A stretch of 48,379 nt of DNA from Thermodesulfobacteriota bacterium (GTDB lineage: Bacteria > Desulfobacterota_D > UBA1144 > Nemesobacterales > N074bin48). The stretch spans positions 1-48,379 of the forward strand of contig JBFFSH010000011.1 in assembly GCA_041572575.1 (NCBI GenBank). Direction: 5' to 3'. The stretch's first letter is position 1. Every line of letters starts with the position of its first letter. Positions 6,001 to 12,000 of the stretch are shown piece by piece. Made by a program: the position numbers.

Positions 6001-9000
6001 CGCCCGGAAGCATGAGCCTTATATTTAAGCTCTGTGATCTTAGTATCCAGATCTAGTGAAGGCAATAGAATCGGAAGCCAGCCGTCACAATACTCAACAA
6101 TTCGTTCAAAGGTCCTTGGGCCATCTCCTCCAAGAAGTATGGGAGGATGTGGTTTTTGAGTTGGTTTGGGATAACTCCAGATCTTGTCAAAGTTAACAAA
6201 CTCTCCGTGAAATTCCGGTTCATTCTCAGTCCAAATCTCTTTCATGGCAAGGATTCTCTCCCGCATTATCTTCCATCTCTTTTTATATTCCGTTCCATGG
6301 TTTGCCATTTCTTCAGCATTCCAGCCTCCGCCGATGCCGAATAAAAATCGTCCATTTGAAAGCATGTCCAGAGTTGCTACTTCTTTTGCGGTAATAATAG
6401 GGTCGCGCTCTATTATGAGGCATATGCCAGTTGCGATCTTTAGTTTAGTAGTAGCGGTTGCTGCGGCGGTAAGCGCTACAAACAGGTCATGTGTGTGCCA
6501 GTACTGTTCAGGCAGGTCTCCGCCTCCGGGTGCCTCACTTTCCCTGCTTGCAGGAATGTGTGTATGCTCAGGAAACCAGAGAGAATCAAATCCCCTGTCC
6601 TCCACCTCTTTTGCCATTTTTGCAGGATGGATCGCAAAGTCTGTTGCAAACATCATTATTCCATAGTTCATAATATATTTCCTCTTTATTAAGATTGTAT
6701 ATAAATACATCCTAAATAGTACTGATTATAATATCATGCGATTTTTCATCAGGATAGAATAAAGTTATGTTTAAAATAAATGATTGGTTATAATAATCCG
6801 CTATAATTATGAAAATAAAATAAGTTTTGGAGGTCGTGTTTTGAATAAATTAATTAATAAATTGGTGTTGGTAGCAATACTTATTACTTTATATTTAATA
6901 GGTATAAGCACAACATATGCACACGAAGATGCAAAAGATCACAAGGATTCTGCAAATAAAGAATCTACGACTAAGGATATGATGGGTATGGATGAGGAAA
7001 CAATGAAAAAGTGGATGGAATACGCCACGCCAAACGAAAATCATAAAGTGTTAGACGGTTTGGTTGGCAAGTGGGACTACAAACTTAAATGGTGGCAGGC
7101 TCCGGGCGCAAAGCCAGAGAAGTCCACTGGAAGAAGCAAAATCAAATGGACTATGGATGGCAGGTTTTTAAGGCATAAAGCTAAGGGCACCTCTATGGGA
7201 CAGCCTTTTAGAGGTATGGGTATTGTAGGATTTAACAATGAGACTAAAAAATATGAGTCTGTATGGATTGACAATATGGGCACGGGTATGGCTAGAGGAA
7301 CCGGCACTTATGATGCTAAAACAAAAAAATTGACTGAAGAAGGCACATTCAGCTGTCCTGGTGAGGGTAATAAGAAGTTTCGCAGTGTGATGACTATCAC
7401 AGGACCTGACACCTTCACATATGAGTGGTATATGCCGGGACCTGATAAAAAAGAGTACCGCGCAATGGTGATTGATTACACAAGGAAGAAAGAAGAAAAG
7501 AAATAACTTGTTAAATAAATAAAAAATAAGGAGGCGGCATTAATTGCCGCCTCATTTTTAGTACATTAATCCCTCCAAATCTTTTTCCACCATTTTTCGT
7601 CATTAACATCTACGACCATTTCATCCAGCTTCATTTTTTTCCTGATGTCGTTTATGTCCCAGCCTGTAAGGCTTGCAAGAATTTTGGCTTCCTGTTCTTG
7701 TCTGGTTTTTACCCTTTTATGATATTCTATAGTTGCATCACATGTATTATCTCCTTTCCATGGTTGTCTTAAAACATAACGCCCCTGAAAGTTTGTCCTG
7801 TCTCCTGTTTCCTGAAAGATCAAATCCTCCGGGAAATGCTCTGCATCGTAACGAACATGCAGGCGGGTGATAAATACATTTCTTGCAAGACCGGATTTCC
7901 TGGATATCGAATCACCTTGGTTAAGCCAGAACACGCCCAGACTCTGTAATTCCTCTGGTGAAAGCGGGTCGGCTGCGCACGGGTCGCACCAGTTCATGTC
8001 CCAGGCGTATTCTAAAAACACGGTTTTCATCTTTTCTTTTTTCACCTGTTCATCAAACATAGCCAGATAAAAATCTTTAAATTCGTCTTTTACATATACA
8101 GGAATATCCATACCTGTTGGCAGCTTCACGGTTCTATAATTTGTAGTCTCAACCCTGCCTTTTCTATTAAGTACATAAACAAAAAGCTCCTGCGGACCAT
8201 CGGCATTTACGGTTCCAAGCCTTATGGGCAGCATAAATTTGGGTGATTCAAATGCCACCTGTATAGGTCTTAAATTAGTAAAGCCAAGCTTTGACTGTTC
8301 TTTTAAATTAACTTTAGCAACAAAGAATCTCATCTCCTGTTTTATGTAGCTTCCCAGAATCTCTGATGCACCTTGTGGAATTTTATATCCGTTTTGCTTT
8401 AGCCATTTTTCCAGGCCAGAACCCTCTTTTGCAGACAGGATTAAAATATCATATTCTCCTACCGTATACTTGGCTTCTACAGCAACACCCAGCCCTTCAG
8501 TTCCAAAAGAAGAGTTATCAGCTGATTTTAAAGAAAATCTGCCAACCGCAGACTCTGCTGAAGGGTAAACATTACACGGGTCTCTATCGAAATATTCGAC
8601 CAGTCTTGGAGAAGAATAGGCATCGAGATGATCTATGATTTTCTGATCACCAATATTTATCTGTTCCCTTTCTATAAAAGTGGGTACGGGAACAACAATT
8701 GCAAACTCTTTCGGGTCGCCCTTAAAATCATTTGCCATAGTAATGACGGTTTTGTCACCGTCTCTTACCAGCACAACCTGCGAAGCCTTGTTGTACATCT
8801 TGGTGTCTGCCTTTGCCACATAAAATCCGCAAAAGCTGTAAGCGTTATGTGATACTGTGAATACCCCTAATAAAAGGAGCAGAGATGTTACTAAAAAATT
8901 CATGATAATGCCTCCTTTGGTTTTAAAATCTGTATTTTTTGTACAGGTTTCCATTCATACTTTTTGCCTTTTATAAACATATCGATTATTGGAACTGTTA

Positions 9001-12000
9001 ATGACGAGCTAGCAAGTGCGTAGAAAAGCGCGTTTGTGTTAAACAAGAAAAACTGAAAATAGTAAGCGACTAAAGAAACGATCAGTGCAAAGAGTATTCT
9101 CCCAATTCTTGTGTCTGGAGTAGTCTTTGGATCGGATATCATAAAGAATGTGAATATTAGTAAAGCACCATTTTGTATCTGATGAAACGGGATCACAAGA
9201 GGGTCACCAAGCCATATTGCCCTTCCAAATATTAGCGAAAAAAAAAAGATCATAAATGCATAAGTCACATCACTTCTTTCTGCGCGGTTTACAACAAGCC
9301 CGCCAATACATGCAATGAGAAATCCCATAAATGCCGTATTTCCCCACTGCCCTGGTGAGACCCATGTGTTATCAAAAAGCAGCAGCATAATAACTATTCC
9401 AATATTAGTAGGGTTAAAGATGTGTTTTCCCTGCCATCTTAAAAAGTATTTGCTGGAGATGGTTATTACAGTGCAGAGAATTATGAGAACAATTGAATCT
9501 GATCTGAGTAACAGACAGAGGGAAAGTCCTGATATTAGGGGACTTCTTGGATCGAATTTCCCAAGCCCTAAATATCTTGTGAACAAATACTGAGTAATCA
9601 GAGCAGAGGACAATATAAGAATTGACCGAGCCAGATGAACTTCAAAATCAAGCTCAATTACACCATAAACAAGCAAGGATGATAGTATTATGATCTGATA
9701 TATTCTAGGATCGAGTCTTTTCATAACTATTTGTCTACTACGAGACAAGTTATAAAAAGTTTTAGTTTTTGAATCCTTATTTGAATTATTCGGTTAATAT
9801 ATTTGTAATATGAATGAATTGATGAATAAAATTAGCTTTCTCTCAGTTTATGCTGTTCTTTTAAGTGTTGTTATCCTCACAAGTGGATGCGCATATGGTT
9901 TAAGGGCTAATAGAACTTATATCAAGATTGATCCACAGAACATCTCTACGCCAAAGCTTGCAAATAAGGTGAATTTTAGTATTTCTGCAAATGTATGGAA
10001 AGGTGAACCAAAGAGGCTCAGGAGGCATTTAATTCCATTTTTTATCGAAGTTCAAAACAACACAGATAAAAATATTATTATCTCAGAGGCCGACTTCATT
10101 TTGTTAGATGAAAACAGAAATCAATTTAATGCCCTATCGCCTGAGAGGGCTGCTAACATAGTGAAATCAGCCGAACAAAAACGTTTTAGGATATATCCCC
10201 GAATTTCCATTGGCATAGGCACTTCATTTCATCACGACAGGTTTCATTATTATGGACACCACCATCATCCCTTTTACAGGCCTTATTATTACTATGATGA
10301 TTATCCCTATCCTTATTACAGAAGACAGGATTATGAGCCTGATTTAGAAGATATATATGCAAAAGCATTAAGTACCGGAGTTATAAGACCCGGGGCGACT
10401 TTGTCAGGATATATTTTCTTCAACAAAATTTCCCGGGATACAAAAGAGCTAACGTTAGAAATAGGATATACGGAGAAAGAAAATAATACTGCACACAAAC
10501 TGGACTTTCATTTTGACCTTATAGAAGTTTATTATAAATAAGTCGGCATAATTAATAGATTTTGGCATAAGTATATACCAGCATAAAGAGTCCGGAAACT
10601 ATAAGTATGTAACCCACTGGCTTTCCAATTTTTCTTCCCCACTTAACATTTTTTTCAATACCCATAACAAGAGCAAGCACTAGCATCCATATAAGGCTTC
10701 CAAACCCAACGGCAAACATAAGGAGCATAAGCGCCCAGCAGCAGCCTATACAGAATTTGCCGTGATCTACTCCGAGCATAAAGGCATTCCACTTCTCTTT
10801 TGTATCTCTCCAGCGCTCCGTAATAAAACTAAGCGGGGATCTGCATTTATCGAGGCATCTATATTTGATTTCTGTAAACTGAAAGAGGCCTGCAAAAATG
10901 AGTATAAGTGGAGGACCAGTCCACATGTAGTCTGATAAGAAAGAAAATGAAGCAAGCGCCCATTTTATAAGAGCTATCTGAAAATAGATCAAGACTCCAA
11001 AAACTGTCCATGTGCCCACATAACCCAAAAGTAAAAGACTAAGTAGTAAGACTCTGTCTGCTCGGTTTTCAGTAAATTTATGAAAAAAGGCTACTATGGG
11101 TATAGTTGTAGGCAGCATCATGGCAACGGTCATAACCGACCAGCTGGCTATGAAAATTACCATAAAACTGTATGAGTTTGCAGAGTGGTGGCCCGAGTGA
11201 TGATTGTGTAGTTGAGTACCGAAGTTGTGTGCTACATGCGCTAGATCACCACCTTTCCACAAAACAATCCAGCATAAGAGTGCAAGTACGGATAGCACAG
11301 TTATGAGAATTCCTCGCTCAACCCTTGGAGAGAATGATGCTTTATAAAAAATCGACATAGAAACCCAATAAAGCTAATTGGAATGCTTTATTATATAGTA
11401 CTATGCCTCAAATTTAAAATGTCCGCAGATTGCGTTATGGTCCTGCAGATCAATATCAAAACCCGGAGCATTAGCCTTAAAGCTTGATGCCTTACCCACA
11501 TAAGCAGGTTTGCCTGGTATTGTGCTGAATATAGAATCATGCAGAGTAGTTTCTAATCCGGTGCCTCCCTTAAATGCTTCTAATGAGGCTTGTGCAACAT
11601 CCCCTACTTTTATTGTTCCATTTACGCCTTCTACATCAAATGTAATGTTTGTTTTTTCTACAGACACTACTTCACCTACAAGACCTGCAAGGTCAGTAAT
11701 TGCTCCGCCTAGTTTGCCGCCCCAGACATTTAGTATTCCCTCCTGCTGAGCATCTGTAGTATCCTGATCCACATAAAGTCTTACTTTCCAGTTTCCATCC
11801 AGAACATTTCCGGGAATATGGGTAAGCATGGCAAGCGTGCGCCCGCTTACATCGACTCCTTCAATTTCACCTTCTTTAATATGCCAGCCTACTATTGCCT
11901 CACAGTAGCCTTCATCCGGATCACCCCCGACCCAGCATGGGCATAGTATATTACAGTTACATACCTCTAAAAGCTGTCCTTCTACCGAATAAGACATTAC

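What a model noticed while it worked through the whole genome (the two positions that open the first line are those of the whole stretch)
7566..9724. Stand-alone RnfD/NqrB-fold membrane protein partnered with exported DUF2330: a widespread two-gene module without Rnf/Nq [...]
g00635 (274 aa, RnfD/NqrB fold, called 'NqrB' or 'enediyne E5' by databases) overlaps the start of g00634 (signal peptide + DUF2330). The genome has no Rnf/Nqr operon. The pair is a fixed module in many phyla and is predicted to form a complex, giving DUF2330 its first partner and indicating that these RnfD-like genes are not respiratory-complex subunits.
Evidence so far: neighbours.tsv: the families lie within 2 genes in 2395 of 3904 genomes having both. 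DUF2330 follows the RnfD-like gene in 77 of 80 relatives' loci (2 cut by contig end, 1 lacking); a 746-aa natural fusion exists (P0388, call 84). Model matches RnfD/NqrB (Foldseek E 8e-6, TM 0.66; call 107). Complex score 0.77, best of 3 controls 0.04; the mark was reached by 116 of 157 solved and 2 of 215 mismatched pairs; runs agree in >=91% of contacts, partner pLDDT >=67; the interface uses the invariant W121-SPGQWG-128 loop.
(Added by a program. Inside this text positions count along the whole contig: contig position 1 is position 1 of the stretch shown here. "Call 12" and the like, gene names such as g00115 and contig names such as C1 are that model's own, and its searches are not shown. 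The text may have been shortened before it was handed on; [...] marks where a part breaks off. The agent that wrote the report below was given it as the finding of a first reader that could run no searches.)

Follow-up and report, generated by a model that had tools for sequence, protein, structure and literature searches.

The report
P35-like protein docked on RnfD-like subunit
Two linked bacterial genes encode a trimmed relative of a respiratory membrane protein and an exported partner whose predicted shape best matches the insect-virus protease trap P35, which suggests an undescribed cell-envelope complex that may catch or sense proteases.

Summary
The pair is real and is not part of Rnf/Nqr. 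The 274-aa gene (8900-9724, minus) has the RnfD fold and keeps the riboflavin residues N104/D198, but lacks the FMN-carrying loop. DUF2330 (7566-8903) follows it in 78 of 80 related loci, co-occurs almost perfectly in two phylum samples, and is independent of RnfA/E. A complex model passes (0.77, best control 0.00). Two corrections: the 'fusions' keep an internal start and signal peptide, so they are weak evidence of binding; and related loop-less RnfD proteins pair with other exported partners (CRTAC1/UnbV as in enediyne E4-E5; a redoxin). New here: the DUF2330 model's best match in three searches is baculovirus P35 (Z 10.9, 231 of 298 residues, aligned from the N-terminus). Like P35 it has Cys at mature position 2 and a protruding loop, here hypervariable. 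Best reading (0.4): a P35-like protease trap or sensor held on the outer face of the inner membrane, its thiols possibly served by the flavin subunit. Rival (0.3): a plain redox module. There is no sequence similarity to P35 and no function is tested.

The parts
8900..9724 (-). Loop-less RnfD/NqrB-fold inner-membrane protein, 274 aa, 10 helices. Keeps N104/D198 (riboflavin site of RnfD), lacks the FMN-threonine linker. Outer loops carry W121-SPGQWG and H181.
7566..8903 (-). Exported DUF2330 protein, 445 aa: signal peptide 1-23, mature start F-C-G, hypervariable loop 111-138, docking motif 252-258 and 358-370, CDPC 306-309, probable disulfide C110-C388 (inferred). Best structural match is baculovirus P35.
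8900..8917 (-). ATGA stop/start overlap with an AGGAGG Shine-Dalgarno inside the end of the first gene (translational coupling, inferred)
   Evidence: sequence
7531..7553 (.). Two-way intrinsic terminator-like hairpin (9 bp, 7 G-C) that closes the two-gene unit against the convergent DUF1579 gene
   Evidence: 3 sites found against 1.7 expected, so the position is what supports it
9725..9809 (.). 85-bp divergent intergenic region; presumed promoter, no consensus site above chance

Best explanation
A two-protein inner-membrane complex unrelated in function to Rnf/Nqr ion pumping. SHOWN computationally: the genes are coupled; the membrane subunit has the RnfD fold without the covalent-FMN loop; the partner has a P35-like fold, Cys at mature position 2 and a hypervariable loop of fixed length. 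MODELLED: the partner sits on the periplasmic loops of the membrane subunit, over the site where RnfD carries FMN. INFERRED: DUF2330 works like P35, as a suicide substrate. A protease that reaches the periplasm cuts the bait loop; the freed N-terminal Cys25 holds the acyl-enzyme thioester, so the protease is trapped or its presence is registered. The CDPC pair keeps Cys25 usable in the oxidising periplasm. The membrane subunit is the dock and, through a retained riboflavin, either the source of electrons for these thiols or the part that passes the cleavage event to the membrane. The membrane subunit's chemistry is the least certain step.
For: P35 is the top match in Foldseek/PDB (ranks 1-8, E 1e-3 to 6.5e-3), in VIA over 48,161 chains (Z 10.6, rmsd 5.4, 223 aligned; next 7.4) and on second look (1p35_B Z 10.9, rmsd 5.6, 231 of 298, model 3..344 on P35 2..299). 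In BFVD, 5 of the top 10 are named P35/P49 and rank 11 falls to E 0.18. P35 uses Cys2 and a flexible loop cut at D87 (PMC7863939 passages) and also traps the bacterial protease gingipain-K (PMC3375223 passage). C25 is kept in 110 of 127 diverse homologues, and a signal-peptidase site sits before F-C-G even in 19 of 19 fusions. Loop 111-137 is 7% identical against 67-82% for the core; in 7 tandem paralogue pairs it is 21-32% against 81-99%; 101 of 101 parsed loops are 25-31 aa and hold Arg/Lys. Loss of CxxC goes with an extra N-terminal Cys/Met (14 of 18 against 4 of 89; 5-11 changes on the tree). Complex score 0.77, best of 3 controls 0.00; mark reached by 116 of 157 solved and 2 of 215 mismatched pairs; runs agree in at least 90% of contacts; partner pLDDT at least 70. 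The interface uses only the loops that positive-inside counts place outside. Its W121 and H181 are 70 of 70 and 69 of 70 in DUF2330-type proteins and not among the three commonest residues in the other types. The docking motif is missing from short DUF2330 proteins that have no RnfD-like neighbour.
Against: No sequence similarity to P35: 7-14% identity in structural alignments, no PDB-sequence hit with the 127-sequence profile at E 10, and no P35 Pfam hit for 24 homologues. TM-scores are low (about 0.25-0.38), rmsd is 5-5.6 A, and the same sandwich occurs in aminopeptidase N-terminal domains and ribophorin I (Z 6-7.7). I could not see the residue-level alignment, so the register of the loop on P35's reactive loop is inferred from range ends. 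A residue (F24) precedes the Cys. The loop is not shown to evolve faster than neutral, and a second loop (326-341) is also variable (20%). No cysteine lies in the modelled interface, so direct electron transfer to CDPC is unsupported. Interface residues are no more conserved than average in diverse homologues (0.45 against 0.50). There is no consistent link with the host's own C25 proteases: 8 of 15 against 80 of 186 in Acidobacteriota, 2 of 6 against 1 of 114 in the own phylum. Sister clades of the membrane protein serve partners that are not P35-like.
Confidence: 0.4

Rival explanations
1. Plain envelope redox module. The loop-less RnfD subunit passes electrons through riboflavin (perhaps with a non-covalent flavin in the vacated outer pocket lined by R74, W127, R168) to or from DUF2330, which is a thiol or metal protein using C25, C306 and C309. 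The P35 likeness is fold only.
For: N104 and D198 match RnfD N124 and D248, which flank riboflavin (PMC9588780 passages; alignment), and are invariant in 110 of 110. A 39% homologue overlaps a membrane-anchored CxxC redoxin on a Metabacillus plasmid (one locus). Huang 2024 proposes electron transfer for an RnfD-like subunit without the FMN threonine. CDPC is in 102 of 127 homologues; the N-terminal Cys/Met compensation fits a metal site as well.
Against: No cytoplasmic donor domain or gene, no apbE or FMN-bind gene in the unit, and no conserved third neighbour among 80 loci. No cysteine is in the modelled interface. This reading does not explain the length-fixed hypervariable loop, paralogues that differ mainly in it, or the end-to-end P35 match.
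Confidence: 0.3
2. Gated channel or transporter. Having lost its FMN lid, the Amt/urea-transporter fold moves an ion, a flavin or a small solute, with DUF2330 as cap, binding protein or trigger.
For: Amt, Rh and urea transporters are the next structural matches (Z 10.6-12.6). D248/N124 of RnfD are also the proposed Na+ site. The modelled partner covers the outer mouth.
Against: The RnfD/NqrB match is far closer (Z 22-24); no transport-related neighbours recur; no substrate is indicated.
Confidence: 0.15
3. Anchor only, or co-regulated genes without a stable complex: the membrane protein is a general dock for exported proteins and has no chemistry of its own.
For: Sister clades pair or fuse with CRTAC1/UnbV proteins (43 of 80 metagenome loci; Pfam). 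Short DUF2330 proteins use a C-terminal hydrophobic tail instead. The genes are unlinked in G002 and G529.
Against: The cytoplasmic-side pocket residues (S61, K92, N104, D198) are invariant across all partner types, which a bare anchor would not need. The complex model passes with clade-specific contacts.
Confidence: 0.12
4. An orphan true RnfD/NqrB subunit, or an enediyne E5 orthologue, as the database names say.
For: Database labels; PF03116 above its cut-off.
Against: TIGR01946 scores 39 bits against a cut-off of 207. The FMN linker is absent. No RnfA/E in the genome, and the module is independent of it elsewhere. It lies on a separate branch from RnfD/NqrB. SgcE5 is 22% identical and in another clade.
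Confidence: 0.03

Closest known systems
RnfD / NqrB (PF03116; PDB 8AHX_D, 7ZC6_D, 7XK3_B)
   Same: Ten-helix fold (Z 22-24, rmsd 2.6-2.7, 243-247 aligned); riboflavin-flanking Asn and Asp, and the Gly matching G237.
   Different: Linker with the FMN threonine is gone (Asn-to-Asp spacing 90-99 against 124-181); no RnfABCEG/NqrACDEF partners; own clade.
Two-subunit Nqr/Rnf-like system (Meheust 2021 PMC8238504; Huang 2024 bioRxiv 10.1101/2024.03.13.584918; passages read)
   Same: Stand-alone RnfD-like subunit without the FMN threonine, modelled with an exported partner on its outer face.
   Different: That subunit is fused to an NAD-binding domain, its partner is an FMN-bind protein and apbE is in the cluster. 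None of these is in this unit; the genome's apbE and FMN-bind genes lie on another contig.
Enediyne cassette E5 with E4 (SgcE5/SgcE4; CRTAC1/ASPIC-UnbV partner)
   Same: Loop-less RnfD-like protein (spacing 102) next to an exported partner.
   Different: 22% identity, different clade, FG-GAP/UnbV partner instead of DUF2330, and no PKS cluster here.
Baculovirus P35/P49 caspase inhibitors (MEROPS I50; PDB 1P35, 1I4E)
   Same: Best structural match of DUF2330 along nearly the whole P35 chain; Cys at position 2; a protruding flexible loop starting near residue 87.
   Different: Viral, with no signal peptide or membrane partner (recalled). DUF2330 adds a docking segment, CDPC and a C-terminal helical part, has no fixed Asp cleavage motif, and shows no detectable sequence similarity.

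Membership tests
RnfD/NqrB subunit | RnfD/NqrB ten-helix fold | tested here: met
RnfD/NqrB subunit | Covalent-FMN threonine in the five-helix linker | tested here: not met
   Spacing 90-99 in 110 of 110 against 130-181 in 26 canonical proteins and 124 in 7ZC6_D; no SGAT-like motif in 110 (the pattern found only 14 of 26 canonical ones, so spacing is the stronger test)
RnfD/NqrB subunit | Riboflavin-flanking Asn and Asp | tested here: met
   N104 and D198 invariant; binding itself not testable
RnfD/NqrB subunit | Encoded with RnfA/E (NqrD/E) and RnfG/NqrC | tested here: not met
   No PF02508 in the 96% complete genome; independent of PF02508 in 201 genomes, p 0.57
Nqr/Rnf-like two-subunit system | C-terminal NAD-binding domain, FMN-bind partner and apbE in the cluster | tested here: not met
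   274 aa with PF03116 only; partner is DUF2330; apbE and FMN-bind on contig C23
Enediyne E5 | Orthology to SgcE5 within an E3-E4-E5-PKSE cassette | tested here: not met
   22% identity, separate clade, no CRTAC1 or PKS neighbour
P35/P49 inhibitor family | P35 fold | tested here: met
   Top hit; Z 10.4-10.9 with rmsd 4.5-5.6, so distant; predicted model only
P35/P49 inhibitor family | Sequence match to the P35 family | tested here: not met
P35/P49 inhibitor family | Cys at position 2 of the mature chain | tested here: met
   C25 after the predicted signal site, 110 of 127; model residue 3 aligns with P35 residue 2, one off; the cleavage site is inferred from the AxA rule
P35/P49 inhibitor family | Reactive loop in register with P35's D87 loop | tested here: inconclusive
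   Disordered loop at mature 91-115 after a helix and a strand; only range ends of the alignment were visible
P35/P49 inhibitor family | Cleavage in the loop and covalent trapping of a protease | not testable with these tools
   needs biochemistry

The most novel reading that the evidence does not exclude
DUF2330 is the cellular relative of baculovirus P35, and the pair is a periplasmic protease trap or tripwire: a variable bait loop catches invading or misplaced proteases through the N-terminal cysteine, and a flavin-bearing, channel-fold membrane subunit resets it or converts cleavage into a membrane response.
Probability: 0.3. Interest if true: 0.9.

Novelty: categorically new. Interest (0 to 1): 0.72.

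Why it matters
A 2011 paper states that no cellular P35 homologue had been described (PMC3252740 passage). If DUF2330 is one, it gives a candidate origin for a viral inhibitor family and a first testable function for a large unstudied bacterial family (0 papers for DUF2330 or its identifiers). Apart from that, thousands of genes labelled RnfD, NqrB or 'enediyne E5' (at least 6717 hits) are not respiratory subunits, so reading Rnf/Nqr from PF03116 alone will mislead. The loop-less RnfD family appears to be a reusable membrane platform with at least three partner types, which also bears on the E4-E5 pair of enediyne biosynthesis.

Tried and rejected
CDPC docking into the vacated FMN pocket (my first idea): no cysteine is in the modelled interface (unnamed residues are uncertain). 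A conserved third gene: none beyond lineage-level neighbours in 80 loci. C139 of the membrane protein as a relay thiol: 81 of 81 in close relatives but 62 of 70 in the wider DUF2330 type and mostly absent in other types. Fusions as proof of binding: weakened; I dropped 10 rows labelled fused that were out-of-frame overlaps. Link to the host's gingipain-type or caspase-type proteases: not consistent. Positive selection on the loop: not shown; only 2 of 7 pairs parsed, and these two are kin. Expression: only contigs with flat or patchy cover, uninformative. Phage or plasmid carriage: no viral-contig hits, no PHROG hit, isolated plasmid hits only. Generality of the redoxin pairing: the first metagenome scan found nothing and the second returned other clades. 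Promoter scan at chance level. GC and GC3 of the pair are within the genome's range, so no sign of recent transfer. Atlas look-alikes outside PF10092 scored under 0.9. The enediyne diiodotetrayne paper and the P35 structure paper are not held.
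Full report
Observation. The window has two minus-strand genes: 8900-9724 (274 aa, P0001) and 7566-8903 (445 aa, P0002). They overlap by ATGA, with AGGAGG before the second start. P0001 matches PF03116 on residues 124-256 only (E 3e-13) and scores 39 bits on the RnfD model against a cut-off of 207. P0002 is DUF2330 (E 7e-83). A two-way hairpin at 7531-7553 follows the pair and the gene upstream is divergent, so this is a closed two-gene unit. 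The genome (96% complete) has one copy of each family, no RnfA/E-NqrD/E match, and apbE plus an FMN-bind gene on another contig.

Linkage. DUF2330 follows the gene in 78 of the 80 best of 427 related loci. One exception ends at a contig end; in the other genome DUF2330 lies elsewhere. In 201 Acidobacteriota genomes, the 15 with a close P0001 relative (E under 1e-40) are the same 15 with a strong DUF2330, all adjacent and 4 in one frame (includes the seed genome and unpublished G348). In 201 genomes of the phylum that holds the Eisenbacteria record L026, 88 have both, 5 a strong DUF2330 only and 2 the RnfD-like gene with only a DUF2330 fragment (G798, a weak fragment, was left out; includes unpublished G695; kin are not independent). 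There the module is independent of RnfA/E: 38 of 90 against 52 of 111. Elsewhere it is rare: 6 of 120 in the own phylum, and only the seed in 201 Verrucomicrobiota and in 151 genomes around G527. G002 keeps both genes unlinked.

Fusions. Ten of 150 DUF2330 representatives carry a full RnfD-like N-terminal domain. All 19 fusions examined keep a hydrophobic stretch ending in a small residue right before F-C-G (two further long proteins were not RnfD fusions). Six of 7 in-frame fusions read at DNA level keep a Shine-Dalgarno and start codon within 130 bases. They look like read-throughs that can still be translated separately or cut by signal peptidase (AxA rule, recalled). This weakens them as evidence of binding, and suggests that a free F-C-G terminus matters.

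Membrane subunit. The model (pLDDT 90) matches RnfD/NqrB at Z 22-24 and Amt/urea transporters at Z 10.6-12.6. In C. tetanomorphum RnfD, Asn124 and Asp248 flank riboflavin and Thr153 carries FMN (PMC9588780, passages). N104 and D198 of P0001 align with the first two and are invariant in 110 of 110 sequences, with S61, K92, P105 and W127. The Asn-to-Asp spacing is 90-99 in all 110, against 130-181 in 26 canonical proteins, so the FMN linker is gone. A quick tree of 116 rows (the careful search did not finish) separates canonical RnfD/NqrB (support 100) from the loop-less proteins. Among these, the 31 DUF2330-linked rows sit in one branch (98) with 4 rows whose partner was not seen.

Other partners. 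Sister clades pair or fuse with FG-GAP/ASPIC-UnbV (CRTAC1) proteins: 7 of 10 distant Acidobacteriota loci by Pfam, and 43 of 80 metagenome loci, against 14 with DUF2330 and 23 with neither, mostly short contigs. Enediyne SgcE5, next to the CRTAC1 gene E4, is 22% identical and also loop-less. These cassette genes are called 'of unknown function' in PMC9992847 (passage); of the later diiodotetrayne paper I saw only the title in a reference list. One Metabacillus plasmid homologue overlaps an anchored CxxC redoxin. A two-subunit Nqr/Rnf-like system without the FMN threonine is in print, with an NAD-binding domain and an FMN-bind partner (passages of PMC8238504 and bioRxiv 10.1101/2024.03.13.584918; supplements not read, and they could list such loci).

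Complex. Score 0.77, best of 3 controls 0.00; the mark was reached by 116 of 157 solved and 2 of 215 mismatched pairs; the runs agree in at least 90% of contacts; partner pLDDT at least 70 (counts hold only roughly with my alignments). I found no like complex among solved structures. The interface uses only the five loops that positive-inside counts place outside (2 Lys/Arg against 20 inside). W121 and H181, in the best contacts, are 70 of 70 and 69 of 70 in DUF2330-type proteins and not among the three commonest residues in the other types. On DUF2330 the main contacts are 252-258 and 358-370 (full-length numbering). Sixteen short DUF2330 proteins lack the ETTNY motif and CDPC, most end in a hydrophobic tail (by eye), and none of 27 such stretches had an RnfD-like gene. 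Against: interface residues are no more conserved than average (0.45 against 0.50), and no cysteine is in the interface.

DUF2330 looks like P35. The model (pLDDT 88, residues 91-115 of the mature chain disordered) has baculovirus P35 as best match in Foldseek/PDB, in the wide VIA search (Z 10.6, rmsd 5.4, 223 aligned; next 7.4) and on second look (Z 10.9, rmsd 5.6, 231 of 298; model 3..344 on P35 2..299). In BFVD five named P35/P49 proteins are among the top ten, and scores drop at rank 11. P35 is cut at D87 in a flexible loop and traps the protease with Cys2 (PMC7863939, passages); it also inhibits gingipain-K (PMC3375223, passage). PMC3252740 says that no cellular homologue was described as of 2011 (passage). 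DUF2330 has Cys at mature position 2 (110 of 127), C110 (mature 87) at the start of the loop (123 of 127), CDPC (103 and 105 of 127) and C388 (117 of 127). The loop is 7% identical where the core is 67-82%. In 7 of 10 tandem paralogue pairs that parsed, it is 21-32% against 81-99%, and 101 of 120 parsed loops are 25-31 residues, all with Arg or Lys. Fast change in reactive loops is typical of protease inhibitors (recalled). Homologues that lose CxxC tend to gain a second N-terminal Cys or Met (14 of 18 against 4 of 89; 3 degenerate rows dropped, and 17 without an N-terminal Cys not counted), which suggests that the two regions share a thiol site.

Limits of the P35 reading. There is no sequence similarity, TM-scores are low, and related sandwiches occur in aminopeptidases and ribophorin I. 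The register of the loop was not visible. A second loop is also variable (20%), although it stays 8 of 11 and 11 of 11 identical in the two paralogue pairs that parsed, where the first loop is 7 of 30 and 6 of 29; divergence beyond neutral is not shown. The host's own C25 proteases do not track the module: 8 of 15 against 80 of 186, and 2 of 6 against 1 of 114. RNA-run contigs cover the region evenly or patchily and say nothing on transcription.

Verdict. Shown: a coupled, non-respiratory pair. Modelled: a complex on the outer face of the inner membrane. Inferred: a P35-like trap or sensor (0.4), a plain redox module (0.3), a gated channel (0.15), an anchor only (0.12), a true Rnf or E5 protein (0.03). 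Not found in print: searches for DUF2330, for PF10092/IPR019283/UCP026449/COG4402 (identifiers partly recalled), for CRTAC1/UnbV with RnfD and for P35 with Foldseek and bacterial since 2022 gave nothing relevant; the library lacks most subscription journals. This scan noted the pair on other DNA several times; a word search of its notes for the P35 link found none.

Noticed in passing
L200:1130-9853, L212, L213, L223, L250 and others: Recurring cluster of an RnfD-like/CRTAC1 fusion (about 900-1000 aa) with a Rieske protein, a GH3-family ligase, a GNAT-like protein and an unnamed membrane protein (9-12 of 80 loci per family); looks like an undescribed biosynthetic cassette that parallels enediyne E4-E5.
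   Followed up: partly
L179, L181, L183-L186: Acidobacterial operon: TPR-FG-GAP-UnbV gene, CRTAC1 gene, loop-less RnfD-like gene, often a second CRTAC1 gene; no PKS seen in the 11-kb stretches.
   Followed up: partly
L089:9396-10783: Membrane-anchored CxxC redoxin overlapping a loop-less RnfD-like gene on a Metabacillus plasmid, beside a mer operon; the Bacillota relatives form their own branch.
   Followed up: partly
L327, L331, L333, L334, L335: Short anchored DUF2330 proteins with Cys-rich mature N-termini (several Cys within the first ten residues), often directly behind a roughly 220-250 aa gene with a signal-like start.
   Followed up: partly
L189, L190, L080:10167-12512: Large proteins with two CxxCH motifs lie next to DUF2330 genes in three loci.
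   Followed up: no
window 10552-11997 (-): DUF1326 followed by a PpoB2/DUF2182 membrane protein; the window also holds a DCC1-like thiol oxidoreductase (4057-4491) and a redoxin (4588-5166). None is conserved beside the pair.
   Followed up: no
window 12256-18331 (+): ABC-type operon with two binding proteins (one doubled) interrupted by a 412-aa protein with an N-terminal STAS domain and an unannotated C-terminal part.
   Followed up: no
G000:C23:14039-17854: apbE, a 468-aa exported protein, an FMN-bind protein and a small membrane protein form the genome's flavinylation cluster, with no Rnf/Nqr genes.
   Followed up: no
G000:C124:2012-3019 and C57:6057-7103: Two gingipain-family C25 peptidase genes, found in only 3 of 120 genomes of this phylum.
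   Followed up: partly
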